Assembly (NCBI RefSeq): GCF_000009705.1
Contig: NC_003272.1
Coordinates: 3,240,001-3,272,000, forward strand
DNA length: 32,000 nucleotides
Origin: Nostoc sp. PCC 7120 = FACHB-418
GTDB taxonomy: Bacteria > Cyanobacteriota > Cyanobacteriia > Cyanobacteriales > Nostocaceae
Direction: 5' to 3'
Part shown: positions 4,422 through 27,437 of the stretch, piece by piece
Numbering within the stretch: the first letter of the stretch is position 1
Layout: every line of letters starts with the position of its first letter
Notes under the pieces: model-generated
Told to the model about the DNA's origin: nothing
The model's input: the letters and a program-made list of their open reading frames with translations, nothing else
Databases searched by the model: none
Translations under genes and position numbers: made by a program

Positions 4422-4430
4422 AGTATTTAG

Positions 4431-4522: not shown

Positions 4523-7489
4523 CACCACTACGGCTTCTTGCTGGCGGTATAAACAGTAATACAGCCCTCTGAGAGCCATTAATTCGTCGTGTGTGCCTTG
4601 CTCGGCAATGCGGCCTTGTTCCATCATTAAGATAATGTCAGCATGGCGAATAGTACCTAAACGATGAGTTATGAAGAAGACTGTTCGCCCTTCTAGTGCT
4701 TGTTGCAGGTTTTGACAGACTTGGCGTTCGCTGTTGTAATCTAAGGCACTTGTGGCTTCATCCATAATTAGGAGACGGGGGTTTTGCAGGACGGTACGAG
4801 CGATCGCAATTCTTTGTCTTTGTCCCCCAGAAAGTGCTGATCCTCTTTCCCCAACACGGGTGTTATATCCCATCGGTAGGCTCATGATGAACTCATGGGC
4901 GTAGGCAATTTTGGCAGCGTTGATGATTTCTTCTGGTGTGGCTTCGGGGTTATTGAGAGCAATATTTTCTTGAACTGTGGTATCAAATAACAGGGTATCT
5001 TGTAATACCATGCCGATTTGTCGCCGTAGGGAATACAGTTCAACTTTGTGGATGTCGTAACCGTCGATGAGGATGCGTCCAACTTCGGGATCATAGAGAC
5101 GTGTTAAGAGTTTGGTGAGGGTGCTTTTACCTGCGCCACTTTGTCCGACTACACCGACGAATTTACCAGGGGGAATATCTAAACTAATGTTGTCTAGTTG
5201 GGGGGTGGGGCTATTGGTGAAGCGGAAGGTGATATGGTCGTATTTAACTGCTCCTTGAATATCTGGTAAGGGGATATCTTGACGCACTGCTTCTTCTTGG
5301 GGTGTGTCTAAAATATCACTCAATCTTTCCAGGGATAAGGCTGTTTCTTGGAAGTTTTGCCACAGTTGCACTAGACGCAGTAGGGGGCTTGTGGTGTAAC
5401 CAGCGATGATGCGGAAGGCGATTAATTGACCGAGGGTGAGTGTTCCTTGTAATACTAAGAATGCGCCGACCCAGAGGAGTAATAACCCTGAGAGTTGGTT
5501 CAGAAATTTACTGATAGAACCTGCTGTGGTGGAGGTGAGGGCATTTTTGAAACTATCAGCCACATAACGAGCATAACGGTCTTGCCATTGCCAACGCGAT
5601 CGCAATTCAATATTTTGGGCTTTGACGGTTTGAATACCGGAAACGACTTCGACTAAATAAGATTGAGTTTGGGCGTTGCGTTCGGCGCGGGTGCGGGTTT
5701 GTTGGCGGATGACGGGGGCGACAATTACACCTAACAGGGCAAATAGGGGGACTGTAGCTAAGGCAACTAAGGTTAATAGCCAACTGTAGTACAGCATGAC
5801 GACGATGTAAATAACGGAAAATATCGCGTCTAGGACTACTGTTAAGGCTGTACCTGTCAGGAATTGGCGGATGTTCTCTAGTTCGTTAATGCGGGTTGAG
5901 AGTTCGCCTACAGGACGCTTTTCAAAGTAACCCAGGGGTAGCCGTAACAGGTGGTTAATGACTTCTGACCCCAAGGCCATGTCTATGCGGTTGGTGGTTT
6001 CTACGAATAAATTTGTCCGTAGGGTGGTGAGGACGGCTTCAAATAGGGCTGTAGCAACTAACAATGTCCCCAACACATTCAAGGTGGCGGGGGAGTTTTG
6101 AATTAGGACTTTATCGATAATTACCTGGGTAATTAGGGGATTCGCCAAGCCGAACAACTGGACAAAGAAGGAGGAAATTAATACCTCACTCAAGACGCGG
6201 CGATACTGGGAAACGAAGGGTAAAAACCAACTTAAGCCGAAGCGTTTACGGGGGGTTTCCTTGGTTGGTTGGAGGAGGAGAATCTCGCCTTGTTCTCCCC
6301 AAGTTTCAATGAAGGCTTTGGGTTTGTGGCGTTGTATTCCCTTTCCTGGGACACCTAACACCAGTTCGCTATCGGTAGCTTTGTAGAGGATAGCAAAGCG
6401 GTTTTGCCATTGCAGCATGACTGGGGTTTGCAAGCGACTGATAGCAATGGCAGGAACTACGGCTAATTGCGCCCGTAAACCCAACATTTCGGCTAAAGAA
6501 CCGCATAATTGTAAGGAAACACTACCTAATCTTTGTTGTTGATTCTGCAATACCCGGCGGATGACATCACGACGGAAAGGCATATTCCAATACTGGCTCA
6601 ACATCTGGAAGCAAGCCAGGGTTTCATTTAATACCCCTTTTCCACTCACATAAGGATATTTACCCTGTCTATCTTTGGACTCTAGGGCCGGGGGTTGTTC
6701 TGAGGCGTAGGGGATATCGTCTGTGATTGTTTCCGGTTCTATTTCTGTGGGTGTGGGTTGAAAAGATACCGGGGGAATGCCGATTAACCTCGCTATACCA
6801 CTTTCTACCTTGAGATTTTGCTTGTCTGGATATGGCTCTAAGCGATCGCCTATGGCAAAGTTAGTATTACCACTACTTAACAACCAAAGCCGGTGGGGAT
6901 CTAGTTGGCTGAGGGGTGTTTTCCCCTTGGAGAGATTCAAAACGACCGTTTGAGGGAGCATTTGCTGGACTAAATCTGTCAGTTCAACTTCCCCCAAGGC
7001 GCGGCGTTGCACTTCTAAACTCAGTAGGTCAAATAACTCTGAGGTAGCACAGTGTTTAGTTAGAGCATCATTAAAGGCTTTTTCTTTTTTTAATAAGGTC
7101 TGAAAAATAACAGATGGGATAGTTAAAAATACTGCTTCTGTGGAGGCGATCGCAGTTTCACAACCCACACCCCTAAGCAAACTTACCCAACCCAGAATCG
7201 CCCCTGGTTGGAGTAATTCGATAGTATCGGGAATAGCAGAATTGTAGCTGTAACCAATTAGCCGGGCTTGTCCTTCGTAGAGAATTGCTACATGAGCCGG
7301 CATTGTTTCTTTGACAACTATTGTTTGTCCCATACGGTAGCGCAATAGTTGTGCTTTCTGTGTCAATTGCTCAATAGCGGCGGTAGATAGAAGATTGAAA
7401 GGCGGCGTTGTTGTGAGGAAATCGGATATTGAGGGTATGGAAGTAGTCATATCGTGTCCGAAAAAAGACTTATTAAGTGAGACTTTCAT
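4520..7489 (-). CDS. ABC exporter (HlyB/T1SS type) with an N-terminal cyclic-nucleotide-binding-like domain and a C39-like domain that appears to be non-catalytic
   Basis: 989-aa ORF. CAP/cNMP-like region at aa ~35-150 (RYRMGQTIVVKE, ILYEGQARLIGY, LQPGAILGW). C39-like region at aa ~285-410 (VLNETLACFQMLSQYWNMPF ... WQNRFAILY). Six-TM exporter domain. NBD with Walker A GQSGAGKST, signature LSGGQRQRIAIAR, Walker B LLIMDEATSALD and H-loop ITHRL. Confidence 0.9.
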   Translation of the reverse strand: MKVSLNKSFFGHDMTTSIPSISDFLTTTPPFNLLSTAAIEQLTQKAQLLRYRMGQTIVVKETMPAHVAILYEGQARLIGYSYNSAIPDTIELLQPGAILGWVSLLRGVGCETAIASTEAVFLTIPSVIFQTLLKKEKAFNDALTKHCATSELFDLLSLEVQRRALGEVELTDLVQQMLPQTVVLNLSKGKTPLSQLDPHRLWLLSSGNTNFAIGDRLEPYPDKQNLKVESGIARLIGIPPVSFQPTPTEIEPETITDDIPYASEQPPALESKDRQGKYPYVSGKGVLNETLACFQMLSQYWNMPFRRDVIRRVLQNQQQRLGSVSLQLCGSLAEMLGLRAQLAVVPAIAISRLQTPVMLQWQNRFAILYKATDSELVLGVPGKGIQRHKPKAFIETWGEQGEILLLQPTKETPRKRFGLSWFLPFVSQYRRVLSEVLISSFFVQLFGLANPLITQVIIDKVLIQNSPATLNVLGTLLVATALFEAVLTTLRTNLFVETTNRIDMALGSEVINHLLRLPLGYFEKRPVGELSTRINELENIRQFLTGTALTVVLDAIFSVIYIVVMLYYSWLLTLVALATVPLFALLGVIVAPVIRQQTRTRAERNAQTQSYLVEVVSGIQTVKAQNIELRSRWQWQDRYARYVADSFKNALTSTTAGSISKFLNQLSGLLLLWVGAFLVLQGTLTLGQLIAFRIIAGYTTSPLLRLVQLWQNFQETALSLERLSDILDTPQEEAVRQDIPLPDIQGAVKYDHITFRFTNSPTPQLDNISLDIPPGKFVGVVGQSGAGKSTLTKLLTRLYDPEVGRILIDGYDIHKVELYSLRRQIGMVLQDTLLFDTTVQENIALNNPEATPEEIINAAKIAYAHEFIMSLPMGYNTRVGERGSALSGGQRQRIAIARTVLQNPRLLIMDEATSALDYNSERQVCQNLQQALEGRTVFFITHRLGTIRHADIILMMEQGRIAEQGTHDELMALRGLYYCLYRQQEAVVV

Positions 7490-7497
7490 CTCTCAAA

Positions 7498-7606
7498 CTC
7501 TCTGCGTCTCTGCGCCTCTGCGTGAAATAAAATCTTTTCAAACGCATTCGCTGATAAGCGTTCCCGCAGGGTAGTATCGCGGAGGTTCACGCGGAGGTAC
7601 ACAGAG
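7498..7606. mobile_element. MITE-like small dispersed repeat (~109 bp) with inverted ends, filling the intergenic gap and overlapping the 3' end of the upstream CDS
   Basis: Left arm CTCTGCGTCTCTGCGCCTCTGCGTGA (7498-7525). Right arm TCGCGGAGGTTCACGCGGAGGTACACAGAG (7578-7606); its reverse complement CTCTGTGTACCTCCGCGTGAA matches the left arm. Related copies lie at 10367, 12311, 15484, 17587 and 19829. Confidence 0.7.
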
Positions 7607-8264
7607 TTTTATTTAAAGTTGCTTGTAATGATTCTTGTAACCATTCCTGGAAGAGTTTATTCAGGAGTTTTTTCCGCGTAGAGTCATCTAATTTGGCGTG
7701 AACCATCTGTTCTAACCGCACAATAACTATCCATTCCCCTAGACGCGTGGGGGGTAATAGTTGTCCTGGTTGACTGGCGCGGAGTTTGGCTACTAACTGG
7801 GGATGGGGTTGGGTAAGGGGTGTGGGGCCGATTAATCCGCCTGTCTGTGCTTCCGGCCCTTGGGAGTATTGACGGGCAATTTCCGCAAAACTTTGCTCTT
7901 TGGCTTTAATCCGAAAGTATAATTCTTGAGCTAGTGCCATATCACGGGTTCGTAGCAGAGAATAAGTTACCTGGTCTAGTTGGGCTTTTTGGGTGAGGAA
8001 ATAAGACTCTACTTTATGTCCCCAAGTCGCTTGTTTAAATTTCTCTAACCGTAATTTTCTAGTTGCTAGTGCTGTTGTCTGTTGAGGATCTTCCTGTTTT
8101 GCCTGCTCTATTTCTTCTGGAGTACATTCTATAGAGGCTATGGCTTGGTCAATTAACAACTCACGATATAGTTGAGGTAGCATCTGATAACCTGCCAACA
8201 GAGATATTAACTCTGATGCAGTGATGGTTTGCTGACACAATCTTTCTAGATAAGAATCATTCAT
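7587..8264 (-). CDS. PpiC/parvulin-type peptidyl-prolyl isomerase-like (SurA-like) protein
   Basis: 225-aa ORF. Parvulin-like core FAEIARQYSQGPEAQTGGLIGP...GQLLPPTRLGEWIVIVRLEQ follows a helical N-terminal half. It is the first gene of the minus-strand exporter gene string. The last residues, LCTSA, and the stop codon are encoded by the repeat at 7578-7606. Confidence 0.7.
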   Translation of the reverse strand: MNDSYLERLCQQTITASELISLLAGYQMLPQLYRELLIDQAIASIECTPEEIEQAKQEDPQQTTALATRKLRLEKFKQATWGHKVESYFLTQKAQLDQVTYSLLRTRDMALAQELYFRIKAKEQSFAEIARQYSQGPEAQTGGLIGPTPLTQPHPQLVAKLRASQPGQLLPPTRLGEWIVIVRLEQMVHAKLDDSTRKKLLNKLFQEWLQESLQATLNKTLCTSA

Positions 8265-8681
8265 TGCAAAATCAAGTGGACAGTTTGGTGGGATGTAATG
8301 TTTGCAATAGTAATTACTGTTGCAAATTGCTTGATCAAGTTGATAACATTCAATAAGAATTACGGCTCAATTTAGAGCTATTGCAATCAAATTATTGAGA
8401 AATTTTATTAAAAATAATATACCTTAGATTACAGAGGTTAGATTGTAAAAAAATTATGTTTTTATCTATAACAAAATTAAGCAGCTTAAATATAGCCACT
8501 CTAGCTGCTAGTAAAATCATCAACAATCAGGTATACTAACCTTCAGTGAAATCTTGATCAATCAGGTATTGGTGATTGAGTCCACACCCAAATGTAACTG
8601 CCAAGAAGCGCAGTTAAAAAGTGCAAATTTTTCACAAACCCTTCTAGCTAATTTCATTCCCCCAAGGCGAATTGGTGCATA
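8265..8681. promoter_or_regulatory. AT-rich divergent intergenic region between the exporter genes and the PKS genes; presumed bidirectional promoter region
   Basis: 417 bp between two divergent start codons (8264 minus, 8682 plus). It is strongly AT-rich at 8340-8520. It contains an 11-bp perfect direct repeat CAATCAGGTAT at 8524-8534 and 8559-8569. I could not identify confident -35/-10 boxes or an NtcA GTAN8TAC site by eye. Confidence 0.4.
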
Positions 8682-11600
8682 ATGATTAACCGCCAACGAC
8701 AAATATTGTCATTAACTCCACACCATGCAGCGACACTTGTGGATGTCTTACGCGCATGGACGCAGCAAAAAGGTGATGCGGTTGGTTTTGCTTTTTGGCA
8801 AGATGACAAACAGGTACATCTTACATACACGGAGTTAGACCACAAAGCGCGAGCCATTGCAGTGCATTTACAAGCTATGCGCTGGCAGGGAGAACGTGTA
8901 TTATTAATGTATCCGCCAGGGTTGGAATTGATTGCAGCTCTTATGGGTTGCTTTTATGCGGGTTTGGTGGCAGTTCCTGTATATCCTCCGCGTCCCAATA
9001 ATAACATAACGAGGTTGTTGTCAATTGGTGAAGATGCCCAAGCTAAGGGAATTTTGACGAAAGTATCCTTAGAAAATTCTTTAAAACAAGTATCTAAAAA
9101 TACTGCTTTTGAGGCTTTGCCGAAAGTTGCTACAGATAGCATCATTTTATCTGTCGGTGAAGCTTGGCAGAATCCTCAACTGACAGCCGATAGTCTGGCT
9201 TTACTACAATATACTTCTGGTTCGACCGGCACACCAAAGGGCGTGATGCTGAGTCATGGTAATTTGCTGCATAACTTAGGGCAAATTTATCAACGTTTTG
9301 GACATTCTGCTAATACTCACGTTGTCAGTTGGTTGCCACCTTATCATGACATGGGTTTGATTGGCGGAATTTTGCAGCCTTTATATGGAGGTTTTCCCGT
9401 CACTTTGATGTCTCCTGTAGCTTTTCTACAAAAACCCCTGCGTTGGTTACAAGCAATTTCTCAAACTCAAGCTACCACAAGCGGCGCACCCAATTTCGCC
9501 TATGAAATGTGTGTCCGCAATATCCGTCTTGATGAATGTCTTGATTTAGATTTGAGTAGTTGGGAGTTGGCGTTTACAGGTGCAGAACCAATTCGCCAGG
9601 AGACACTAGAAAGATTTGCTACTACTTTTAAAACTTATGGTTTTCGTCGAGAAGCGTTTTATCCTTGCTATGGTTTAGCTGAGGCGACTTTGTTTGTCAC
9701 TGGTAAAAATAAGGATGAAATAGTATTTAATCATACTTCTCAATCCTTGGTTAGTTGTGGTTCTCCCAGTGATGACCAGACTATAATTATAGTTAATCCT
9801 GAATCTAGAGAACCCTGTGCAGCCGGGGAAGAAGGGGAAATTTGGCTCAAAGGTGCAAGTGTCGCCCAAGGTTATTGGCAAAATCCCCAAGAAACAAAAG
9901 CAACTTTTCAAGGGGCTTTGGCTTCGGGAACTGGCGGGTTTTTACGCACGGGTGACTTGGGGTATTTAAACTCAGGCGAATTATTTGTCACCGGCAGGAT
10001 AAAAGATGTGATGATAATTCGGGGACAAAATTACTATCCTCACGATATTGAGGCGGCTGTTTCCCAGTGTCATCCGGCTTTGAGTGCCTATTGGGGTGCG
10101 GCGTTTAGTGTGGAAGTAGACGGGGAAGAACGGTTGGTGGTGGTGCAGGAGGTTGAACGTAGTAGTTGGCGTAGGCTTGATGAGGATGGGATTATTGCGG
10201 CGATTCGTGGTGCTGTTTCCTGTGAGTTTGGTTTGCAGGTGTATGGGATTTGTTTGTTGAAGCCTGGGAGTATTCCTAAGACTTCTAGTGGGAAGGTGCA
10301 GCGTTTTGCTTGTCGGGAGGGGTTTGTTTGTGGGGGGTTGGATGTGGTGTTTGGGTGGGAATTAGCTCACGCAGAGGCGCAGAGGCGCAGAGAGGAGAGG
10401 GGAGAAGAGAAAGAAAAGATAGTAGATGGGTTGATTGGGTGGTTACGGGATTATGCTAACCATCATATTAATTCGCGGTTGATGGATGAACGGCGTTGTA
10501 TTTCGCCTCATGTGGTTTTGGATTTTGGGAATAAGGGTTTGTTGGGGATGCAAGTCCCTTCCTGTTATGGTGGGTTGGGTTTGGGATATACGGACACCAT
10601 CAGGATTATACAACAGCTTGGGGCGATTGATCCGACTTTGGCTTTGTTTGTGGGGTTGAATAATGTTTTGGGGGTGCGTCCTATATTAATGTATGGGACG
10701 GATGCTTTAAAGGCGGAACTTTTACCGATTTTGGCGACGGGGCGGGAATTGGCAGCTTTTGCACTGACGGAAACGGGTGCTGGGGCGAATCCGCAAGCTA
10801 TACAGTCGCAAGCGATTAGTGATGGTGATGGTTGGTTGTTGCGGGGGGAAAAGATTTGGAGTGGTTCGGCGGCTTGGGCTGGTGTGATTAATGTGTTTGT
10901 CAAACATCAGCAGGGTATTAGCGGTTTTGTGGTGCGTCGCGGTAGTCCTGGTTTGCGTCAAGGTGCGGAAGCGTTGACGATGGGAATGCGGGGAATGGTA
11001 CAGAATACGGTTTATTTGGAAGATATTCCGGTGACATCCGCGCAAGTTTTGGGTGAAGTCGGGAAGGGGATGAATGTCGCTCAAGATGCCATGATGTATG
11101 GGAGATTAGCGATCGCATCTGCTTGTGTCGGTGGGATGCAACGCTGTGTACAATTAATGTGGCGTTATAGTCAACGGCGACAAATCGCTACAGGGAAGTT
11201 ACTCGACCATCCCATAGTTTTACATCGTCTGCAAGAATTGACTTGTGCGATTACTGTTGTCCAGAGTTTGGTGATGCGGGTAGGAAAATTACTCGACGCT
11301 GGTGAAACTGTGCCGGCGGAAGTATATGCAGCTTGTAAAATTTCTGCACCGGAATTTTATTGGCAAGCAGCAGATTTATTGGTACAAACTTTAGGGGGAC
11401 GAGGATATATAGAAAGTAATATTGCACCGCAAATTCTCAGAGATGCGCGAGTTTTGCGGATATTTGAAGGGCCGACAGAAACTTTGTGTGGGTTTTTGGG
11501 TGCGCGTGTGTTGAAACAGGGTGAGACATTGCAAAATTTCCTCTGTCAAACTTTGGGTGCGGTGGAAGTCGGTACGAGGTTAAGGGATGCTGTTGATAAA

Positions 11601-12302
11601 ATTAGAGGACGCTGTTTTGATGGTGCTAATATTACAGTGCAGCGTTGGGTTTATCATCAAGTCGGTAAACTCGCAACTGAAGCGATATTATGGGCAGTAT
11701 TAGATGATAAATCTGCAATAAATTGGGTAAAACATCGCTTTGATGAACAACTGCAAGAAATCTTGAGTTTTAACACCGATAACTTACTATTTCTCAATGG
11801 TCAAAGTTTAGTTCATCACCTCAACGAATACACAAAAACCATCGGTGACATTGAACAAAATCTGGCTGGGGAAGCGCAAGAGTTAGATGAGTTACTGCGT
11901 CAGTCAGGGGAGAATCCCCAGTTTATTCCCACAACAGCAGATTTACCCGCATCCTCAGAGATTCAAACCTGGTTAAAAACTTGGATATCTCAAAAATTAC
12001 GCCAGCCAATTTCTACTATAGATGTAAATAGAGCCTTCGCCGAATACGGTATGGATTCCGTCACAGCGATAGAACTAACCCAAGATTTACAAGAATGGTT
12101 GAAGATTTCCCAACCTTTAGATGCGACTATCGCTTGGAATTTCCCCACCATTAACGCCTTAGCTAACTACTTGGGGGAAGTTACCAAAGAAAATGCTGTA
12201 CCTTCAGATAACAACTTGGATGACTTATCTACTACAGATATAGCACAACTCTTAAGCCAAGAAATTGCGATCGCTCGTCACCGTAAACCTCAAATGAAAT
12301 GA
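8682..12302 (+). CDS. Tri-domain loading protein: fatty acyl-AMP ligase (FAAL), acyl-CoA-dehydrogenase-like domain, and acyl carrier protein
   Basis: 1206-aa ORF. FAAL motifs: YTSGSTGTPKGVMLSHGNL, FLRTGDLGY, PKTSSGKVQR (aa 1-~560). ACAD-like region at aa ~580-960 (FALTETGAGANPQAIQS, WSGSAAWAG, RIFEGPTETL with the expected catalytic Glu context). ACP motif EYGMDSVTAIEL with the Ser codon at 12057-12059. C-terminal docking-like tail DIAQLLSQEIAIARHRK. Confidence 0.9.
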   Translation: MINRQRQILSLTPHHAATLVDVLRAWTQQKGDAVGFAFWQDDKQVHLTYTELDHKARAIAVHLQAMRWQGERVLLMYPPGLELIAALMGCFYAGLVAVPVYPPRPNNNITRLLSIGEDAQAKGILTKVSLENSLKQVSKNTAFEALPKVATDSIILSVGEAWQNPQLTADSLALLQYTSGSTGTPKGVMLSHGNLLHNLGQIYQRFGHSANTHVVSWLPPYHDMGLIGGILQPLYGGFPVTLMSPVAFLQKPLRWLQAISQTQATTSGAPNFAYEMCVRNIRLDECLDLDLSSWELAFTGAEPIRQETLERFATTFKTYGFRREAFYPCYGLAEATLFVTGKNKDEIVFNHTSQSLVSCGSPSDDQTIIIVNPESREPCAAGEEGEIWLKGASVAQGYWQNPQETKATFQGALASGTGGFLRTGDLGYLNSGELFVTGRIKDVMIIRGQNYYPHDIEAAVSQCHPALSAYWGAAFSVEVDGEERLVVVQEVERSSWRRLDEDGIIAAIRGAVSCEFGLQVYGICLLKPGSIPKTSSGKVQRFACREGFVCGGLDVVFGWELAHAEAQRRREERGEEKEKIVDGLIGWLRDYANHHINSRLMDERRCISPHVVLDFGNKGLLGMQVPSCYGGLGLGYTDTIRIIQQLGAIDPTLALFVGLNNVLGVRPILMYGTDALKAELLPILATGRELAAFALTETGAGANPQAIQSQAISDGDGWLLRGEKIWSGSAAWAGVINVFVKHQQGISGFVVRRGSPGLRQGAEALTMGMRGMVQNTVYLEDIPVTSAQVLGEVGKGMNVAQDAMMYGRLAIASACVGGMQRCVQLMWRYSQRRQIATGKLLDHPIVLHRLQELTCAITVVQSLVMRVGKLLDAGETVPAEVYAACKISAPEFYWQAADLLVQTLGGRGYIESNIAPQILRDARVLRIFEGPTETLCGFLGARVLKQGETLQNFLCQTLGAVEVGTRLRDAVDKIRGRCFDGANITVQRWVYHQVGKLATEAILWAVLDDKSAINWVKHRFDEQLQEILSFNTDNLLFLNGQSLVHHLNEYTKTIGDIEQNLAGEAQELDELLRQSGENPQFIPTTADLPASSEIQTWLKTWISQKLRQPISTIDVNRAFAEYGMDSVTAIELTQDLQEWLKISQPLDATIAWNFPTINALANYLGEVTKENAVPSDNNLDDLSTTDIAQLLSQEIAIARHRKPQMK
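10367..10394 (-). repeat. In-frame copy of the CTCTGCG-family small dispersed repeat, reverse orientation, at the FAAL/ACAD junction
   Basis: TCACGCAGAGGCGCAGAGGCGCAGAGAG is the reverse complement of CTCTCTGCGCCTCTGCGCCTCTGCGTGA. It is translated as HAEAQRRRE within the linker [28 protein letters not shown]. Confidence 0.75.
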
Positions 12303-12305
12303 TCA

Positions 12306-12390
12306 CGCCCAGACGCAGAGGCGCAGAGAGTGAGAGTTACAACAGACTCCGCGCCCCTTTGCGTTTACCTCCGCGCCCCTTTGCGTTTAA
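12306..12390. repeat. Composite small dispersed repeat filling the loading-gene/PKS1 intergenic spacer
   Basis: Left arm AGACGCAGAGGCGCAGAGAG (12311-12330). Right arm CTCCGCGCCCCTTTGCGTTTACCTCCGCGCCCCTTTGCGTTT (12347-12388). The right arm is nearly identical to 19829-19871. Confidence 0.75.
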
Positions 12391-12398
12391 AAAATCCT

Positions 12399-15300
12399 AT
12401 GACTAACTCACCCAACTACCAAACATTGCTCAAAGACGCACTCGTAGAAATGCGACAACTACGAGCCGAAATCACAGCCTTGGAAGCACAACAAACTGAA
12501 CCCATCGCTATTATTGGCATGGCTTGTAGATTTCCTGGTGGTGCAAATAACCCGGAAGCTTTTTGGCAATTGTTACGGGATGGTGTGAATGCAGTCGGCG
12601 AAATTCCCGACGCACGTTGGGATATAGAGAAATACTACGATGCAAACCCCGACACCCCAGGGAAAATGTACACTCGCTACGGGCATTTTCTGGACAAAGT
12701 AGACGAGTTTGACGCTCAATTTTTCGGCATTTCTCCCCGCGAAGCCCAAAGTCTCGACCCCCAACAACGTCTATTATTAGAGGTGAGCTATGAAGCTTTA
12801 GAACGTGCTGGACAATCTCCCGCAAAAATCAAAGGTAGTCAGACATCTATATATATAGGACTATGTTTTGATGACTACGCCAAACATAGTCTTTCTCATC
12901 CTACACAAATTGATGCTTTTAGCAGTTTAGGTAACACTCGCAGCATCGCCGCCGGACGTATCGCCTATGTGTTGGGGTTACAAGGAACAGTAATGCAACT
13001 AGATACAACCTGTTCTTCCTCCTTGCTGGGGGTACATTTAGCCTGTCAAAGTTTGCGGAATGGTGAGTCTGACATGGCTTTGGCGGGAGGAGTCAACTTA
13101 ATTTTATCCCCAGAACCGATGATTGGCTTTTGTAAGTTGAAAGCCTTAGCAGTTGATGGACGTTGTAAAACCTTAGATGCGGCGGCGGATGGTTACGGAC
13201 GAGGTGAAGGTTGTGGCATTGTTGTCTTGAAAAAATTGCGAGATGCGATCGCAAACCGTGACCCGATCTTAGCAGTGATTCGCGGTTCGGCAGTTAATCA
13301 CGACGGTAGCAGCAACGGTTTAACAGCCCCCAACGGTACAGCCCAAGAAGCCGTAATTCACCAAGCTTTACAAAATGCTCAAGTCGAACCACACCAAATC
13401 CAATATAGTGAATTGCATGGCACAGGTACAGTTCTCGGCGACCCCATCGAAGTTTTAGCACTAGCTAAGGTGCTAGGTGAAGGTAGAAGTAAAAATCAAC
13501 CCTTATCTATTGGTTCGGTGAAAACCAACATCGGACATTTAGAAGGTGCAGCCGGTGTAGCGGGGTTAATGAAAGTCATCTTGGCACTGCAACACCAACA
13601 AATTCCAGCCCATGTCAACTTTCAACAACCAAACCCCTACATTCCCTGGCAGAAATTACCCCTCACCGTCCCTACTCAATTAACTCCTTGGCAGAGTGCA
13701 AACAGTCAACGCCTCGCCGGTGTGAGTTCCTTTGGGATGAGTGGGACGAATGTACATTTAATCTTAGAAGAATTTACCCCTGTACCAAATTCCCAACAAG
13801 ACACAGGATATCAACTACTAACCATATCCGCCAAAACACCCCAGGCATTGCGGGAACTTGTAGGGGAATACATTAAATACTTTGCTTCACAGCCGGAAGA
13901 TAACTTAGATGATATTTGCTTTACTTCTAACGTCGGGCGATCGCACTTCCCTTACCGCCTAACGATACCCGCCAATTCTTATAATTCAGTTTATGAGCAA
14001 TTATCTAATTACCTGAACAATACCGCAAAAACATTTGATAGTCAACTAATCCCCCCAAATACTCTCAAAATCGCCTTTCTCTTCACCGGACAAGGTAGCC
14101 AATACCTTAACATGGCGAGGGAACTTTACGACACCCACCCCTATTTCCGCCAACAAGTTGATAAATGTTGTGAATTATTGCATCCTTACTTAGATGTAGA
14201 TTTACGTGAGATTTTATTCACACCAGAAACGCCAAATAGTAGTAATTACGAATTACGAATTACAAATTACGAATTATCCCATACCATCTACACTCAACCC
14301 GCCTTATTCGTCATCGAATACGCCTTAACTCAACTGTGGCGACATTGGGGAGTTACACCTGACTTTCTTATAGGACATAGTTTAGGGGAATATGTCGCCG
14401 CTTGTATTGCTGGTGTCTTCACCTTACCAGACGCACTCAAACTAATTGCTCACCGCGCTCGGTTGATGCAACAATTGCCTGAGAATGGCAAAATGTTAGC
14501 TGTGAGTGCATCAGCCACAGAAATCGCCGAATATATTCAAGCATATTCTGAAAACGTGGGTATTGCTGCCATCAATTCCCCAGAGAATACAGTAATTTCC
14601 GGCGAACAAACAGCCATTGCACAACTAGCAGAAATTTTGCAAAATCAGGGAATCAAAACTACACCCTTATCAGTTTCCCATGCTTTCCATTCTCCCTTAA
14701 TGGAGACAATGGTAGAAGAATTTAGACAAGTCGCCGAGAGTATCACCTTTCATCCACCCAAAACACCGATAATTTCTAACATCACAGGTACAGTTATTGG
14801 TGAAGAAATTGCGAACGCCGAGTATTGGTGTCATCATATTTTACAACCCGTACAATTTGCACTAGGGATAGAAACATTAGCCAAAGACAACTGCAAAATC
14901 TTTCTCGAAATTGGAGTAAAACCCACCTTACTCAGTATAGGTAAAACCTGCTTCCCAGATGCAGAAAATTACTCCTGGCTACCCAGTTTACGTCCCCGAC
15001 AAAGTGACAGACAAACAATCTTATCTAGCCTCGCATCGTTATATATGCAAGGTATAGATATCAACTGGGAAAACTTCACCGACAACCAACCACATCAACG
15101 AGTAATTTTACCAACCTATTCATTTCAACGCCAGAGATTTTGGGTAGACAAACCTGAATTTACCCCACCCTATCCAACTCCTAACCTACATCCTTTACTG
15201 GGACAGAAATTAAAACTAGCAAAATCAGAAAAGATATATTACCAAAATAAAATTTCCCCAAAAAAACCAGACTTCCTACAGCAACATCAAGTCCAGAGTA

Positions 15301-18300
15301 ATAGTATCATGCCTGCTGCCGGCTATATAGAAATAGCAATAACAGCCGCCGAACAAATATTTCCATCCCACTCCTACAACCTACAAAACATTCAAATCAT
15401 CCAACCCTTACCCACCACCCAAGAAATCACCCTCCAACTAATCCTCACCCCCCTAGAAAAACAAACCTACCAATTTGAAATCCTCTCCCTTTGCGCCTTT
15501 GCGCCTTTGCGTGAGAAAGAAACCACCCACGCCACAGGAATCATCCAAACCTCCCCACCCCTTCCAAACTCCCCTCAACTCCCAACAACCTGCACCCAAA
15601 AAATTGACCCCACCACCTACTACCAAACCTGCCAAAAATTAGGAATAGAATACGGAAAATACTTCCAAGCAATTCAACAACTTTGGCGAGGAGAAAACCA
15701 AGCATTAGGCGAAATCAAACTATCACCAGAAATTGACACAACCCCTTATCAAATTCACCCGATAATCTTAGACGCTTGCTTACAAGTAACGGGAGCAATT
15801 TTCCTCGACTCCCAACCATTAACAGCGTACCTACCCATAGCTATCGAACAATTCCAATGGTATGGAGAAAAACACCAAACACACCTTTGGAGTTACGTTA
15901 AACTGCGAGAAAGATATATCGCTGATATTCAAATATTCAACGCTAATAATAAACTAATCGCCACTATCACCGGCTTAAAAATTCAGCCAGTCAAACAATT
16001 AAATAACTGGCAAGATTGGTTATATAGTATTGCATGGAAAGAAAACCCCTTAACTTACCATCACTTACTAACTCCCACTAAAGTTAGTAACTCATCAATA
16101 TTAAATCAGTCAGAATTAGATAATTATTTATCCCTATCATCCCAACTAGAAAAGCTGAGTATTGCTTGCATCTTACAGACATTGCAAGCGGGTGAAGAAT
16201 TGAGTATAGTAACCCAACATAAAAAACTATATCAGTATTTATTGCAAATTCTCCAAAATCAAGAACAAAGAGAAACACCCCTCAGCTTTACCCAATTGCG
16301 TCAAACCTATCCCAACGCCACATCCGAATTAAACTTACTCAAACGCTGCACCAGCCATTTAGCAGAAGTCTTGCAAGGAAAAATCGACCCACTACAATTA
16401 TTATTTCCCAATGGAGACTTCAGCGACTTAACGCACCTTTACCAAAATTCACCCATTGCCAAAATGATGAATACCTTGGTAAAACAAGCAATTACCACAG
16501 CCATAACCGACATCCCCCCAGAACAACCCCTGCGAATTTTGGAAATAGGCGCGGGAACTGGGGGAACTACCGCACATTTATTACCAGAACTCGCACAAAG
16601 AAACATTGAATATTTCTTTACCGACGTTTCACCCCTGTTCCTCAGCAAAGCACAGCAACAATTTGCAGATTATTCCTGTGTGCGATATCAATTATTTGAT
16701 GTCGAAAAACCTCCCACTACCCAAGGCTTCACAGAAAATAGCTTTGATATCATCATCGCCGCTAACGTACTCCACGCCACCGAAGATTTACGACAAACCA
16801 TAATACATATCAAGCAACTCTTGTCAAGAGGTGGGCTGCTTATTTTACTAGAAGGAGTACAGCCTGTATGGTGGTTAGACTTAATATTTGGGTTAACTGA
16901 AGGCTGGTGGCGTTTCCAAGACTATGATTTACGTCCCCATCATCCGCTAATTTCCAGTGAACAATGGCAGAAATTATTCACACAAGAGGGTTTTGACTCT
17001 ACAACCTTACTCGAAACCATAGGAAACCAAGCAGTAATTACCGCGCAAACTCCAAAATTACCAGATAACTGCGTAATTTTAGCGGATAAACAAGGCTTAG
17101 GAGAAAAACTCGCCACCCATCTACAAACCCAAGGAGTAACTTGTCATTTAATTTTTGCCGACTCCCAACCTCCCACCCTTCCCACACCAGCATCACACCT
17201 AATTAACCTCTGGGGTTTAGACGTACCCCACCCCGACGAATTAACCACCGCAGAATTAATCAAACAACAACAGATCCTCTGCGAAAGTTTGTTGTATTCG
17301 CTACAAAATAATATAAAATATCAGCAATTACCCCAATGGTGGCTAGTCACCCAGGGAGCAGTAAACACAGATCAGGACACTTCTATAAAAGGACTTGCAG
17401 CCACAACATTGTGGGGAATAAGCAAAGTAATACAACTAGAACATCCAGAAATCAACTGTCACTGTTTAGACCTAGACCCAAACCACACCCCCATAGAACA
17501 ACTAGATATTCTTTTAAAAGAACTCCTAACAAACTCCCCAGAAAAAGAAATCGCTTGGCGCACTAACATCCGATACACCCCAAGACTCTCTCAAAACTCT
17601 CTCTGCGTCTCTGCGCCTCTGCGTGAGAAAAATAATTCCTTAATGCAACGCCTAACCATCCCCCAAAGAGGAACACTAGAAAACCTAACCTTCCAAACAG
17701 TTAACCGTACTTCCCCAAACCCAGGAGAAATAGAAATCCGCATTCAAGCCACAGGCTTAAACTTCCGCGACATCTTAAACGCCTTAGACTTGTACCCAGG
17801 CGAACCCGGAATGCTAGGCTGTGAGTGCGTCGGCGAAATAGTAGCCATCGGTACAGATGTCAAACACCTGCAAATCGGACAAACAGTCATAGCCTTAGCC
17901 AGTGGTAGCTTTAGCCAGTATGTCACCATCAAAGCAGCGATGGCTTCGCCCGCCGCAGGCATCGCAATTCCCCTCCCCCAAAACTTAAATATCATCGATG
18001 GCGCAACCATACCAGCCGCCTTCCTCACCGCCTTTTACACCTTGCGCCATCTCGCCAAAATTCGCCCCGGTGACAAAGTTCTCATCCATGCTGCTGCGGG
18101 TGGTGTCGGACAAGCAGCCATTCAAATAGCTAAACTAGCAGGTGCAGAAATATTTGCAACCGCCAGTCCCCAGAAATGGGAAACCCTGCGAAACTTAGGC
18201 GTAACCAAAATTTTCAACTCACGCACTTTAGATTTTGCTGAGGAAATTCTCACCCAAACTCAAGGAGAAGGTGTAGATATCGTCCTCAATTCTCTCCGTG

Positions 18301-27437: not shown

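What the first reader, a model, noticed from the sequence alone, without database searches (positions are those of the whole stretch)
8682..27437. Orphan lipid-type assembly line: fused FAAL-ACAD-ACP loader plus two fully reducing C-methylating PKS modules, with no release domain
Seen in the sequence: three co-directional genes separated by spacers of about 96 and 114 nt.
- The loader has FAAL adenylation motifs, an acyl-CoA-dehydrogenase-like domain with the IFEGPTE catalytic-Glu context, and an ACP.
- Each PKS has a full reductive loop plus a SAM-dependent C-methyltransferase (EIGAGTGG).
- Both AT domains carry the malonyl-type HAFH motif, so methyl branches would come from SAM rather than methylmalonyl-CoA.
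- PKS2 ends at an ACP, and the next gene is a convergent HAD phosphatase. No TE, R, C or sulfotransferase-TE is present.

Established analogies:
- FadD28 (FAAL) plus mycocerosic acid synthase makes multimethyl-branched lipids. Mas lacks a TE and is offloaded by the discrete acyltransferase PapA5.
- Discrete acyl ligase, acyl-CoA dehydrogenase and ACP (LipA/LipB/LipD) make the unsaturated lipid starter of friulimicin.

Inference: if each module acts once, the product is a fatty acyl chain extended by two saturated alpha-methylated C2 units. This gives a 2,4-dimethyl acyl, possibly with a double bond inherited from the ACAD step. It would be released or transferred by an enzyme encoded elsewhere. 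I know of no characterised product for this architecture, but I cannot search.
Basis: partly seen in the sequence, partly recalled or inferred. Interest (0 to 1): 0.75.

Follow-up and report, generated by a model that had tools for sequence, protein, structure and literature searches.

The report
Lipid-loading arm of siderophore assembly line
Three genes of the model cyanobacterium Anabaena/Nostoc PCC 7120 (alr2678-alr2680) build a methyl-branched fatty chain but have no release step, most likely because they pass the chain to a fourth synthase encoded about 80-100 kb away in the iron-regulated siderophore gene cluster, which would make the "orphan lipid" the tail of an iron-scavenging molecule.

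Summary
The window is Anabaena/Nostoc sp. PCC 7120. It holds alr2678 (FAAL-ACAD-ACP), alr2679 and alr2680 (each KS-AT-DH-cMT-ER-KR-ACP, malonyl-type AT). PKS2 stops after its ACP, and a convergent HAD gene follows. No TE, R or C domain follows PKS2 in PCC 7120 or in any of eight Nostocales orthologous loci.

The "self-contained orphan lipid line" reading is probably wrong.
- In Oscillatoriales the same three genes run straight into a fourth PKS (PKS3, KS-AT-KR-ACP), then a monooxygenase and an NRPS.
- The last 16 residues of PKS2 (IExSITxELxxLExLL) are conserved from PCC 7120 to those clusters.
- Several Nostocales with the trio, PCC 7120 among them, keep a PKS3 orthologue with the same CurL-type N-terminal docking helix.
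- That orthologue is the last gene of an NRPS operon carrying Dmaq-type siderophore genes. It lies 79-89 kb from the trio, with a TonB receptor and an EntS-like exporter always beside the loader.
- Published EMSAs show FurA binding at alr2679 and alr2680.

Best reading (about 0.5): the trio is the lipid-starter arm of a split siderophore assembly line. All domains are under purifying selection. The product is unknown.

The parts
67..2670 (-). TonB-dependent siderophore receptor with N-terminal AMIN domain (all2674). It is a conserved neighbour of the loader. An EntS-like MFS_3 exporter lies just beyond the left edge of the window.
   Evidence: Pfam Plug, TonB_dep_Rec_b-barrel and AMIN. NCBIfam TonB-siderophor 378 bits against a cut-off of 223. 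Present next to the loader in every relative examined. Its identity to orthologues tracks that of the loader.
2898..7489 (-). HlyD-type adaptor (2898-4421) and HlyB-type ABC exporter with cNMP-binding and C39-like domains (4520-7489). They are associated with the trio in some lineages only.
   Evidence: Pfam and NCBIfam. Present in PCC 7120, UHCC 0870, Nodularia and Calothrix CSU_2_0. Absent in Trichormus M33 and N. edaphicum.
7587..8264 (-). PpiC-type peptidyl-prolyl isomerase. It travels with the ABC/HlyD pair.
   Evidence: Pfam Rotamase. Same distribution as the ABC/HlyD pair.
8265..8681 (.). Divergent promoter region. It holds a FurA-box-like 19-mer at 8390-8408 (- strand).
   Evidence: A weight matrix built from 77 published FurA boxes scores this site 14.3, against a median of 14.5 for the boxes themselves. 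It is the third best site in the 32-kb window and the best in an intergenic region. Weak evidence.
8682..12302 (+). Loader alr2678. Domains: FAAL (about 8754-10334), ACAD (10443-11513), ACP (11970-12173) and a C-terminal docking tail (...TTDIAQLLSQEIAIA...).
   Evidence: It is 100% identical to a protein of Anabaena FACHB-709 / Nostoc PCC 7120. dN/dS is 0.07-0.17 in the domains, and ACAD is the most conserved domain.
12303..12398 (+). Spacer of 96 nt. A 22-bp unit (CTCCGCGCCCCTTTGCGTTTAC) occurs twice at 12347-12390 and ends 8 nt before the ATG.
12399..19766 (+). PKS1 alr2679. N-terminal docking helix, then KS 12498-13622, AT 14076-15059, DH 15189-15998, cMT 16494-17000, ER 17721-18608, KR 18654-19187, ACP 19473-19670, and a C-terminal docking tail ([17 protein letters not shown]).
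   Evidence: dN/dS is 0.09-0.31 in the catalytic domains.
19767..19880 (+). Spacer of 114 nt. The same 22-bp unit occurs twice at 19830-19873 and ends 7 nt before the ATG.
19881..27437 (+). PKS2 alr2680. N-terminal docking helix, then KS 19962-21086, AT 21570-22499, DH about 22665-23636, cMT 24138-24650, ER 25335-26228, KR 26262-26798 and ACP 27093-27293. No further catalytic domain.
   Evidence: dN/dS is 0.06-0.35 in the catalytic domains.
23301..23426 (+). In-frame insertion of 126 bp (42 aa) with two palindromes, inside the DH domain of PKS2. It is specific to PCC 7120.
   Evidence: Absent from all six aligned orthologues, including the N. parmelioides orthologue (about 93% identical). DNA shown.
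27384..27434 (+). Conserved C-terminal docking helix of PKS2 (IETSITAELAALESLLT). It follows a variable linker.
   Evidence: The IExSITxELxxLExLL pattern (I replaced by V in Nodularia chucula) is conserved in Nostoc, Cronbergia, Trichormus and Nodularia, and in Limnoraphis, where PKS3 follows 4 nt after the stop. The preceding roughly 30 residues vary freely.
27481..28342 (-). Right border, not part of the system. It holds a HAD hydrolase (27481-28128) and a 63-aa remnant of an EamA transporter gene (28151-28342).
   Evidence: Pfam. The genes downstream of PKS2 differ in every orthologous locus.

Best explanation
**Claim.** alr2678-alr2680 is the lipid-initiation arm of a split, iron-regulated siderophore assembly line. 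It is not a self-contained lipid pathway.

**Shown from sequence**
- The FAAL domain has the motifs to adenylate a fatty acid and load it on the loader's own ACP.
- The ACAD domain keeps its catalytic Glu.
- Two single-module PKS proteins can each add one malonyl unit, C-methylate it with SAM and carry a full reductive loop.

**Inferred**
- The ACAD domain introduces a 2,3 double bond into the acyl-ACP, as proposed for NvlI.
- After the two extensions the ACP of PKS2 carries a 2,4-dimethyl-branched acyl chain four carbons longer than the starter, with the double bond now at C6.
- PKS2 does not release this chain. Its conserved C-terminal helix docks onto the CurL-type N-terminal coiled coil of a fourth protein, PKS3 (KS-AT-KR-ACP; P0242 in PCC 7120, probably all2635). 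PKS3 adds one more C2 unit with a beta-hydroxyl.
- PKS3 passes the chain to the NRPS modules of the all2641-all2649 siderophore operon.
- Release is then by the thioester-reductase domain encoded in that operon.
- Export and re-uptake use the EntS-like MFS (all2673) and the AMIN-TonB receptor (all2674) that sit beside the loader.
For: 1. **No release function nearby.** None is present in the window or downstream of PKS2 in eight orthologous Nostocales loci, and the downstream genes are unrelated from genome to genome. tblastn found no remnant of PKS3, LLM or NRPS genes after PKS2.

2. **Contiguous version in Oscillatoriales.** In Limnoraphis, Lyngbya, Capilliphycus and Oscillatoria, loci whose PKS2 is about 55% identical continue 4 nt after PKS2 with PKS3 (KS-AT-KR-ACP), a luciferase-like monooxygenase and a C-A-PCP NRPS; the FAAL-ACAD-ACP loader and PKS1 upstream were checked in Limnoraphis.

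3. **Docking elements are conserved.**
- The last 16 residues of PKS2 are conserved from PCC 7120 to Limnoraphis, while the linker before them is not.
- The PKS3 N-terminus is S(E/Q)RILAALK(E/D)AR(I/T)KLEAVE in Nostocales against SQRILAALTEARTKLEAVE in Limnoraphis. Overall identity is only about 55%.
- That N-terminus matches the CurL docking domain plus KS structure 4mz0 (E 6e-6).

4. **Co-occurrence.**
- PKS3 orthologues were found in these trio-bearing Nostocales: PCC 7120/FACHB-709, UHCC 0870, Cronbergia, Trichormus M33, Nodularia, N. edaphicum, N. favosum, CHAB 5715 and Calothrix CSU_2_0.
- Their identities run parallel to those of the loader: 90, 86, 82, 82, 70-73 and 67%.
- At least 16 loader/PKS3 pairs share the same longest-contig length.

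5. **Same chromosomal island.**
- Loader and PKS3 are 89 kb apart in Nostoc UHCC 0870 and 79 kb apart in N. edaphicum.
- They lie less than 47 kb apart on one metagenome contig, where PKS3 is followed directly by an AMIN-TBDT.

6. **PKS3 sits in a siderophore-type operon.** It is the last gene after a TubC_N-C-A-PCP NRPS, a CmlA-like/thioester-reductase protein, a methyltransferase, an aminotransferase and an SfmD-type peroxidase pair like FbnL/FbnM of Dmaq biosynthesis.

7. **Transport genes.** The TBDT and MFS_3 exporter are beside the loader in every relative examined, and the TBDT co-diverges with it.

8. **Literature.** FurA binds the alr2679 and alr2680 promoter regions in EMSA (PMC4788461). 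It also controls all2649-all2641 (PMC4005646).

9. **The genes are alive.** dN/dS is 0.06-0.35 in all catalytic domains.
Against: - The link to PKS3 is inferred from sequence conservation, co-occurrence and neighbourhood. No interaction or product data exist.
- In Nostocales PKS3 lies after the gene with the terminating reductase domain, so the proposed order is not collinear.
- I could read only the last 10 kb of the NRPS operon. One of its two other PKS proteins could carry a similar C-terminal helix and be the true partner of PKS3.
- I could not show that the NRPS genes after PKS3 in Oscillatoriales are the same as those in PCC 7120.
- all2674 transcripts were reported to rise under copper limitation, not iron limitation (PMC2771747).
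- In PCC 7120 the DH of PKS2 carries a 42-aa insertion that might impair it.
- The KR domains have His at the catalytic Tyr position.
- The assignment P0242 = all2635 rests on gene order and my memory of the annotation, not on a tool result.
Confidence: 0.5

Rival explanations
1. Self-contained lipid pathway. The trio makes a 2,4-dimethyl-branched (possibly unsaturated) fatty acyl chain. A trans-acting thioesterase or acyltransferase encoded elsewhere hydrolyses it or transfers it to a lipid or glycolipid. The product may be exported by the adjacent ABC/HlyD or MFS systems.
For: - The three genes form a compact unit that is conserved on its own in eight Nostocales loci.
- Exporters are adjacent.
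- N. edaphicum has a beta-lactamase-fold protein beside the MFS gene. The fungal LovF/LovD pair (from my own knowledge) shows that a KS-AT-DH-cMT-ER-KR-ACP synthase without TE can be off-loaded by such an enzyme.
- The Limnoraphis locus has a type II thioesterase nearby.
Against: - No candidate release enzyme is conserved next to the trio.
- This view does not explain why the extreme C-terminal helix of PKS2 is conserved with clusters where it must dock to PKS3.
- It does not explain why a PKS3 orthologue with the matching N-terminal helix is kept in the trio-bearing genomes examined.
- It does not explain why a siderophore-type receptor is the constant neighbour.
Confidence: 0.25
2. Decaying remnant. 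The trio is what is left after a rearrangement that cut a longer assembly line behind PKS2, and in PCC 7120 it no longer makes a product.
For: - The contiguous version exists in Oscillatoriales.
- The right border looks like a breakpoint. There is a truncated EamA gene in PCC 7120, a transposase directly after PKS2 in Nodularia chucula, and different neighbours everywhere.
- PCC 7120 has a 42-aa insertion in the DH of PKS2.
- PKS2 is split into two ORFs in Nodularia UHCC 0506 and Calothrix CSU_2_0.
Against: - All catalytic domains have dN/dS of 0.06-0.35 in comparisons from 93% down to 55% identity, and there are no stops or frameshifts in PCC 7120.
- The catalytic motifs are intact.
- The unit has persisted across several genera.
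- The split ORFs are in draft or metagenome assemblies and may be sequencing errors.
Confidence: 0.08
3. Self-releasing keto-polyketide. The KR domains are inactive because His replaces the catalytic Tyr. The chain therefore stays as a 2,4-dimethyl-3,5-diketo thioester and leaves PKS2 spontaneously as a 3,5-dimethyl-4-hydroxy-6-alkyl-2-pyrone, so no release domain is needed.
For: Both KRs read GQANHVAAN where EryKR1 and Mas have the catalytic Tyr. Pyrone formation from triketide thioesters is established chemistry (my own knowledge).
Against: - The His variant is a trait of a whole clade. In the loci held, 51 of 55 His-type KRs sit in modules with a cMT, against 1 of 54 Tyr-type KRs.
- The KR, ER and DH domains are all under purifying selection (KR 0.09-0.23, ER 0.12-0.22), which would not be expected if the reductive loop were idle.
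- The NADPH-binding and LDD motifs are intact.
Confidence: 0.04

Closest known systems
NvlI-NvlM of the nostovalerolactone cluster, Nostoc punctiforme (PMC9324945)
   Same: A fused FAAL-ACAD-ACP loader is proposed to load a fatty acid (octanoate), oxidise it on the carrier and pass it to cis-AT type I PKS proteins that include C-methyltransferase domains.
   Different: Nvl continues with four PKS proteins and a tetronate-like cyclisation machinery in one locus. Here there are two fully reducing cMT modules and no release or cyclisation genes. I did not measure sequence identity to NvlI. The roles of the Nvl loader domains are themselves a hypothesis.
Uncharacterised contiguous clusters of Limnoraphis robusta, Lyngbya, Capilliphycus salinus and Oscillatoria CS-180 (loci L010, L017, L018, L019, L085)
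   Same: Same PKS2 at about 55% identity and the same PKS2 C-terminal helix, with the loader and PKS1 confirmed upstream in Limnoraphis. An EntS-like MFS_3 exporter and iron-related genes are nearby.
   Different: PKS3, a luciferase-like monooxygenase and an NRPS follow PKS2 directly. A type II thioesterase is nearby. Genes are translationally coupled instead of separated by repeat-filled spacers. The product is unknown.
all2641-all2649 siderophore NRPS/PKS cluster of PCC 7120 (Jeanjean et al. 2008, cited in PMC4005646), and the Dmaq siderophores anachelin and fabrubactin
   Same: Same genome and same FurA control. The PKS3 orthologue closes an operon that carries an SfmD-type peroxidase pair like FbnL/FbnM, a methyltransferase, an aminotransferase and a thioester reductase.
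   Different: In the papers I could read, that cluster is described as nine genes without alr2678-80. No lipid tail is known for anachelin, and I do not know the fabrubactin starter unit. The structure of the PCC 7120 compound is not published in the papers I could reach.
FadD28 + mycocerosic acid synthase + PapA5 (Mycobacterium)
   Same: A FAAL-primed, fully reducing type I PKS makes methyl-branched acyl chains and has no thioesterase. Mas is among the best PDB matches of the KR domain.
   Different: Mas is one iterative protein. It takes methyl branches from methylmalonyl-CoA and has no cMT. It is off-loaded by an adjacent acyltransferase. Here there are two non-iterative modules, HAFH (malonyl) ATs, SAM-dependent cMTs and docking tails, and no PapA5-like gene is conserved nearby.
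LovF / LovD (fungal lovastatin side chain)
   Same: Identical domain order KS-AT-DH-cMT-ER-KR-ACP without a release domain. The product is removed by a separate protein (my own knowledge).
   Different: It is a fungal iterative synthase. Release is by a beta-lactamase-fold acyltransferase. Such a gene is seen only in N. edaphicum beside the MFS gene, not in PCC 7120.
Cyanochelin clusters (FAAL-primed PKS/NRPS siderophores with a transport cassette)
   Same: A fatty-acid-primed hybrid line makes an amphiphilic siderophore. An AMIN-TonB receptor and an MFS exporter are encoded alongside.
   Different: Different chelating groups (beta-hydroxy-Asp), no ACAD domain, and no pair of fully reducing cMT modules. 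The whole line is in one locus.

Membership tests
Modular cis-AT type I PKS, fully reducing module with C-methyltransferase | KS with Cys-His-His catalytic residues | tested here: met
   DTTCSSS/DTACSSS, HGTGT and NIGHLE are present in both proteins. Pfam ketoacyl-synt E 5e-93 and 2e-100.
Modular cis-AT type I PKS, fully reducing module with C-methyltransferase | Integrated AT with GHSxGE and an extender-unit motif | tested here: met
   GHSLGE/GHSVGE and HAFH (malonyl type) in both. NCBIfam fabD-like match. Specificity is inferred from the motif only.
Modular cis-AT type I PKS, fully reducing module with C-methyltransferase | DH with HxxxGxxxxP and DxxxQ motifs | tested here: inconclusive
   The His and the DACLQ Asp are present. 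The Gly of HxxxG is Ser (PKS1) or Asn (PKS2). The PKS2 DH carries a 42-aa insertion 16 residues after the catalytic Asp, in PCC 7120 only. dN/dS is 0.12-0.35.
Modular cis-AT type I PKS, fully reducing module with C-methyltransferase | SAM-binding cMT between DH and ER | tested here: met
   [11 protein letters not shown] and NVLHAT in both. Pfam Methyltransf_12 E 2e-20.
Modular cis-AT type I PKS, fully reducing module with C-methyltransferase | KR with the Lys-Ser-Tyr catalytic residues | tested here: not met
   Lys and Ser are present, but the Tyr position is His in both KRs (alignments to EryKR1 and Mas). The same holds in all orthologues and in a wider clade linked to cMT modules. Activity cannot be judged from sequence.
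Fatty acyl-AMP ligase (FAAL) | Closest relatives are proven FAALs rather than acyl-CoA ligases, and a carrier protein is the acceptor | tested here: met
   Best PDB matches are a PKS FAAL domain (7r7g, E 9e-183), the Legionella FAAL 3kxw, FadD32, FadD23 and FadD28. Acyl-CoA ligases score far lower. NCBIfam FAAL models are the top hits. An ACP is fused in the same protein.
Fatty acyl-AMP ligase (FAAL) | FAAL-specific insertion that blocks the CoA-thioester conformation | tested here: inconclusive
   In the alignment to 7r7g the query is about 20 residues shorter in the segment after the FVTGKN motif, where the insertion lies. No structural test was made.
Acyl-CoA dehydrogenase family (acting here on acyl-ACP) | Three-domain ACAD fold with the catalytic Glu in the C-terminal domain | tested here: met
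   Pfam N, M and C domains. IFEGPTE aligns with IFEGTNE of ACAD9. This is the most conserved part of the loader (81-95% identity within Nostocales, 72% to Limnoraphis; dN/dS 0.07-0.11). FAD binding and substrate were not tested. The domain is cleanly deleted in Cronbergia.
Mas / PapA5-type lipid system | One iterative synthase with a methylmalonyl-specific AT, and an adjacent PapA5-like acyltransferase | tested here: not met
   There are two separate modules with HAFH ATs and cMT domains. No acyltransferase or condensation-like gene is found in the window or conserved in relatives.
Cur-type (class 2) PKS docking pair between PKS2 and PKS3 | N-terminal coiled-coil docking domain on the acceptor, related to a solved example | tested here: met
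   Residues 12-50 of PCC 7120-type PKS3 match CurL (4mz0, E 6e-6) and weakly the CurK-CurL docking fusion 4myz.
Cur-type (class 2) PKS docking pair between PKS2 and PKS3 | Matching C-terminal helices on the donor, and physical binding | not testable with these tools
   The PKS2 tail is conserved and resembles the tails of the loader and PKS1. It has no PDB sequence match. Complex prediction or binding assays were not possible.
NRP-metallophore (Dmaq-type siderophore) gene cluster | Chelator pathway genes (FbnL/FbnM-like peroxidase pair), a TonB receptor and an exporter in the cluster, and iron regulation | tested here: inconclusive
   An SfmD_perox gene with a small partner ORF lies next to PKS3 in PCC 7120-type, UHCC 0870 and N. 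edaphicum loci. The marker definition comes from PMC12971057. The TBDT and MFS_3 are beside the trio. FurA EMSA is from the literature. That the trio belongs to this cluster is inferred, not shown.

The most novel reading that the evidence does not exclude
Anabaena PCC 7120 and its relatives make a lipidated Dmaq-type siderophore, an amphiphilic relative of anachelin and fabrubactin.
- Its 2,4-dimethyl-branched, possibly unsaturated tail is built by alr2678-80.
- The tail is handed across about 80-100 kb of chromosome to a PKS at the far end of the NRPS operon, purely through a conserved docking-helix pair.
- This would be a split, non-collinear assembly line in a genetically tractable model organism.

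A second, independent novelty is not excluded. The ketoreductases of cMT-containing modules may work with His instead of the canonical catalytic Tyr.
Probability: 0.4. Interest if true: 0.6.

Novelty: new variant of a known kind. Interest (0 to 1): 0.5.

Why it matters
- PCC 7120 is the main genetic model for filamentous cyanobacteria. The product of its large FurA-controlled NRPS/PKS siderophore cluster is still structurally undefined in the literature I could reach.
- If alr2678-80 supplies the tail, the molecule to look for is an amphiphilic lipopeptide, not a polar peptide. That changes where to look (cell-bound fraction) and what mass to expect.
- It would assign a long-standing orphan PKS to a function.
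- It is also a clean case for genome mining. Cluster-calling software would separate the two loci and report a PKS with no release domain. Conserved docking termini together with a contiguous version in another order reveal the connection.
- The link between His-type ketoreductases and cMT modules, if it holds outside this sample, matters for predicting the reduction state of polyketides.

Tried and rejected
1. **Pseudogene remains after PKS2.** tblastn of Limnoraphis PKS3, LLM and NRPS, and of all downstream ORFs of nine relatives, against 27438-32000 gave nothing.

2. **"ORF-free" 28.4-32 kb stretch.** This was an artefact of the ORF listing not listing ORFs that run off the window. It is a Ser/Thr kinase + AAA_16 gene starting at 28694.

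3. **A conserved TE, hydrolase or acyltransferase downstream in relatives.** None is shared.

4. **Conserved unknown proteins left of the MFS gene (323 + 720 aa; 1199 aa in Trichormus).** They show only weak ABC-2 permease and M1-peptidase-like signals and give no release candidate.

5. **Rfam.** No match in the window.

6. **Dead-KR / pyrone idea.** Rejected on conservation grounds.

7. **Literature.**
- Reviews on FAALs and on fatty-acid incorporation in cyanobacteria say nothing on ACAD fusions beyond nostovalerolactone.
- The nocuolin and cyanochelin clusters are different systems.
- Jeanjean 2008 and Vinnik 2021 are not held.
- A search for Tyr-to-His ketoreductases gave nothing relevant.

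8. **PDB sequence search with the PKS2 tail.** No meaningful hit.

9. **FurA matrix scan.** One plausible box in the loader promoter and none in the two short spacers. I treat this as weak evidence.

Full report
**Identity of the window**

The loader protein is 100% identical to a protein found on contigs of 6,413,771 bp and named from Anabaena sp. FACHB-709 / Nostocaceae. The neighbouring receptor retrieves complete chromosomes of the same strain group. The window is therefore the Anabaena/Nostoc sp. PCC 7120 chromosome. The three genes are alr2678, alr2679 and alr2680. The latter two are named as polyketide synthases in PMC4788461, and the receptor at the left end is all2674 (PMC2771747).

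**Check of the observation**

- The ORF listing finds three + strand ORFs.
- The ATG codons at 12399 and 19881 match the N-termini of orthologues. They give spacers of 96 and 114 nt.
- Pfam and NCBIfam give FAAL, ACAD (N, M, C) and ACP for the loader. They give KS-AT-DH-cMT-ER-KR-ACP for each PKS, with E-values down to 1e-100.
- The quoted motifs ([19 protein letters not shown]) are in the translations.
- The FAAL domain is closest to solved FAALs: 7r7g at E 9e-183, then 3kxw, FadD32 and FadD28.
- The ACAD domain aligns with ACAD9 and VLCAD with the catalytic Glu in register.
- PKS2 ends 47 residues after its ACP. A convergent HAD hydrolase follows, then a 63-residue remnant of an EamA transporter gene.
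- After that comes a + strand Ser/Thr-kinase/AAA_16 gene that runs off the window.
- The window holds no TE, R, C or sulfotransferase domain.

**Are the genes alive?**

I compared PCC 7120 with orthologues from N. parmelioides, Cronbergia, Trichormus M33, Nodularia chucula, N. favosum, N. edaphicum, Calothrix CSU_2_0 and Limnoraphis.
- Every catalytic domain has dN/dS between 0.06 and 0.35.
- The ACAD domain is the most conserved part of the loader, at 81-95% identity within Nostocales and dN/dS 0.07-0.11.
- There are no frameshifts in PCC 7120.

Two features need a caveat.
- Both KR domains have His where EryKR1 and Mas have the catalytic Tyr. This is true of all orthologues and of a wider clade. 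KR, ER and DH are all constrained. I therefore take the loop to be active, but this is inference.
- PKS2 of PCC 7120 alone has a 126-bp in-frame palindromic insertion in its DH domain.

**What lies around the trio in relatives**

To the right of PKS2 nothing is conserved:
- HAD in PCC 7120.
- An unknown protein, an SDR and a hydrolase in N. parmelioides.
- MoaA and a glycosyltransferase in Cronbergia.
- CHAT/TPR proteins in Trichormus.
- A transposase in Nodularia chucula.

To the left, the AMIN-TonB siderophore receptor and an EntS-like MFS_3 exporter are next to the loader in every genome examined. These are PCC 7120, UHCC 0870, Nodularia (two species), Trichormus M33, N. edaphicum and Calothrix CSU_2_0. 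Receptor identity tracks loader identity. The PPIase, the cNMP/C39 ABC exporter and HlyD are inserted between receptor and loader in some lineages only.

**The contiguous version**

In loci from Limnoraphis robusta, Lyngbya, Capilliphycus salinus, Oscillatoria CS-180 and an uncultured relative, PKS2 (about 55% identical) is followed immediately by a fourth PKS, PKS3. The FAAL-ACAD-ACP loader and PKS1 upstream were checked in Limnoraphis.
- PKS3 has the domains KS-AT-KR-ACP and is about 1570 aa long.
- It starts 4 nt after the PKS2 stop.
- A luciferase-like monooxygenase and a C-A-PCP NRPS come next.
- The Limnoraphis locus also has an MFS_3 exporter, a type II thioesterase, an OFeT iron permease and a Suc_Fer-like protein. 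That last family is noted in cyanobacterial siderophore transport cassettes.
- tblastn finds no trace of PKS3, LLM or NRPS genes after PKS2 in the window.

**Docking elements**

The tails of the loader (TTDIAQLLSQEIAIA), PKS1 ([17 protein letters not shown]) and PKS2 (SITAELAALESLLT) are of one kind. PKS1 and PKS2 begin with coiled-coil-like N-termini.

In the alignment of PKS2 orthologues the roughly 30 residues after the ACP vary freely. The last 16 residues keep the pattern IExSITxELxxLExLL in the Nostocales and in Limnoraphis (Nodularia chucula has V for the first I), where this tail must meet PKS3.

**PKS3 exists in PCC 7120**

A search with Limnoraphis PKS3 found orthologues of 54-56% identity and the same architecture in trio-bearing Nostocales. 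A second search with the UHCC 0870 protein found more:

| Genome | Protein | Identity to UHCC 0870 PKS3 |
|---|---|---|
| Nostoc sp. PCC 7120 / FACHB-709 | P0242 / P0241 | 90% |
| Cronbergia | P0217 | 86% |
| Trichormus M33 | P0245 | 82% |
| Nodularia spumigena | P0246 | 82% |
| CHAB 5715, N. favosum, N. edaphicum | P0193, P0223, P0195 | 70-73% |
| Calothrix CSU_2_0 | P0248 | 67% |

- These values run parallel to those of the loader.
- At least 16 loader/PKS3 pairs share the same longest-contig length in the two hit lists.
- The PKS3 N-terminus is far better conserved than the protein as a whole. PCC 7120 has SERILAALKEARTKLEAVE and Limnoraphis has SQRILAALTEARTKLEAVE.
- It matches the CurL docking-domain/KS structure 4mz0 (E 6e-6).

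**Where PKS3 sits**

In PCC 7120-type genomes, UHCC 0870 and N. edaphicum it is the last gene of an operon. The upstream genes, in order, are:
- A TubC_N-C-A-PCP NRPS that ends in ...EEREEFEI.
- A CmlA-like/metallo-beta-lactamase protein fused to TubC_N and a thioester reductase.
- A methyltransferase.
- A class III aminotransferase.
- MbtH, in some genomes.
- A small ORF plus an SfmD-type peroxidase.

A two-protein haem peroxidase (FbnL/FbnM) is the published marker of Dmaq biosynthesis in fabrubactin and anachelin (PMC12971057). The literature describes all2649-all2641 as the FurA-controlled siderophore NRPS/PKS cluster of PCC 7120 (PMC4005646). By gene order PKS3 should be a few genes beyond all2641, probably all2635. 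This assignment is my inference.

Distances and topology:
- Loader to PKS3 is 89 kb in UHCC 0870 and 79 kb in N. edaphicum.
- In both, the NRPS operon and the trio point away from a central stretch that holds the transport genes.
- On one 56-kb metagenome contig, PKS3 is followed directly by an AMIN-TonB receptor. The loader gene lies on the same contig.
- In the 10 kb of the NRPS operon that I could read, no other protein ends in the PKS2-type helix.

**Regulation**

- FurA binds the alr2679 and alr2680 promoter regions in EMSA (PMC4788461). It also controls all2649-all2641.
- A matrix built from published FurA boxes finds a site of median quality at 8390-8408 in the loader's divergent promoter. 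This is weak support.
- Against a simple iron story, all2674 transcripts were reported to rise under copper limitation rather than iron limitation.

**Mechanism proposed**

Shown from sequence:
- An adenylating FAAL with its own ACP.
- An ACAD domain with an intact catalytic Glu.
- Two modules with malonyl-type ATs, SAM-dependent cMTs and full reductive loops.
- Docking-type termini at each junction and at the end of PKS2.

Inferred:
- Fatty acyl-ACP is desaturated at C2-C3, as proposed for NvlI.
- Each module adds one C2 unit, methylates it and reduces it fully. This gives a 2,4-dimethyl acyl-ACP with the old double bond at C6.
- The chain is then transferred to the KS of PKS3, extended once more to a 3-hydroxy acyl chain, and passed to the NRPS.
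- Release is by the reductase domain in the NRPS operon.

The ACAD step is dispensable for the line as such. Cronbergia has a clean in-frame deletion of the whole ACAD domain, with FAAL and ACP left at about 80% identity.

**Rivals**

- A self-contained lipid pathway with release in trans (0.25) remains possible. It does not explain the conserved PKS2 tail, the retained PKS3, or the siderophore receptor as constant neighbour.
- A decaying remnant (0.08) is contradicted by purifying selection.
- A dead-KR pyrone route (0.04) is contradicted by the constraint on KR, DH and ER and by the clade-wide nature of the His variant.

**Comparison with known systems, and novelty**

- The loader architecture is not new. 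NvlI is a precedent. All 120 listed relatives of the loader contain FAAL and ACAD domains and nearly all an ACP, and some are further fused to a reductase, an aminotransferase or a monooxygenase.
- The Mas/PapA5 analogy fails on the defining features.
- FAAL-primed siderophore lines are known, for example the cyanochelins.
- What seems new is the connection of this long-annotated orphan PKS to the siderophore cluster through a split, non-collinear arrangement held together by docking termini. With it comes the prediction of a lipidated Dmaq-type siderophore.
- I found no paper making this link.
- I rate it a new variant of a known kind, with interest 0.5.

Noticed in passing
window 18654-19187 and 26262-26798 (KR domains); loci L001-L092: The catalytic Tyr of the KR is His (GQANHVAAN) in both modules, in all orthologues, and in related modules from methanotrophs and Chloroflexi. 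In the loci held, 51 of 55 His-type KRs are in modules with a cMT motif, against 1 of 54 Tyr-type KRs. The sample is phylogenetically biased, and I know of no description of this variant.
   Followed up: partly
window 8682-11516 (FAAL and ACAD coding sequence): Third-codon-position G-versus-C skew is +0.35 (FAAL) and +0.68 (ACAD). In the receptor, HlyD, ABC and KS-AT/DH-cMT regions of both PKS genes it is -0.35 to -0.54. The Nodularia loader shows the same contrast (+0.28 against -0.34). The Limnoraphis loader does not. Unexplained.
   Followed up: partly
window 12347-12390 and 19830-19873; L079, L081, L082 spacers: A 22-bp unit (CTCCGCGCCCCTTTGCGTTTAC) occurs twice and ends 7-8 nt before the ATG of both PKS1 and PKS2. 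Orthologous spacers carry related octamer repeats (CCTTTGCG, CATCTGCGTT) followed by TTTAAAAAA-N3-5-ATG. Oscillatoriales and Calothrix have tightly coupled genes with GGAG sites instead.
   Followed up: partly
window 10370-10392, 14244-14276, 15488-15511, 17600-17624: Short tandem repeats lie in frame inside coding linkers. They are the octamers CGCAGAGG, CCTTTGCG and TCTCTGCG, and the heptamer AATTACG, which gives [11 protein letters not shown] in the AT of PKS1. The ACAD deletion of Cronbergia has one breakpoint at the CGCAGAGG repeat (AEAQRRREE).
   Followed up: partly
window 23301-23426: An in-frame insertion of 126 bp with two hairpin-forming palindromes lies in the DH domain of PKS2, 16 residues after the catalytic Asp. 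It is absent from all six aligned orthologues. It looks like a small mobile repeat, and its effect on the DH is unknown.
   Followed up: partly
P0064 (Cronbergia sp. UHCC 0137), compared with window 8682-12299: The orthologous loader is FAAL-ACP only (705 aa). Residues corresponding to about 577-1075 (the ACAD domain and linker) are cleanly deleted in frame, and the rest is about 80% identical.
   Followed up: yes
window 28151-28342 (- strand): A 63-residue ORF matches only the last 40 positions of the EamA domain. It is a truncated transporter gene at the right border of the trio and suggests a past rearrangement there.
   Followed up: partly
window 28694-32000 (+ strand): A long ORF (Ser/Thr protein kinase + AAA_16, more than 1100 aa) runs off the window. 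The ORF listing does not list it, so the stretch looks empty at first.
   Followed up: yes
L087 21100-23624 and L005 (Nodularia sp. UHCC 0506); L013 (Calothrix CSU_2_0): PKS2 is split into two ORFs in these assemblies (624 + 1841 aa; 1117 + 613 aa). This is either real pseudogenisation or assembly error.
   Followed up: no
hits P0061, P0066, P0110, P0103: Some cyanobacterial FAAL-ACAD-ACP proteins carry a further fused domain: an aminotransferase, a thioester reductase or a luciferase-like monooxygenase. The tri-domain loader therefore feeds several kinds of downstream chemistry.
   Followed up: no
L083 14147-18152 and L081 602-5101: An ABC ATPase plus a large membrane protein with weak ABC-2 permease and M1-peptidase-like signals lie next to the MFS_3 exporter. 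The membrane protein is split 323 + 720 aa in PCC 7120 and fused as 1199 aa in Trichormus. Function unknown.
   Followed up: partly
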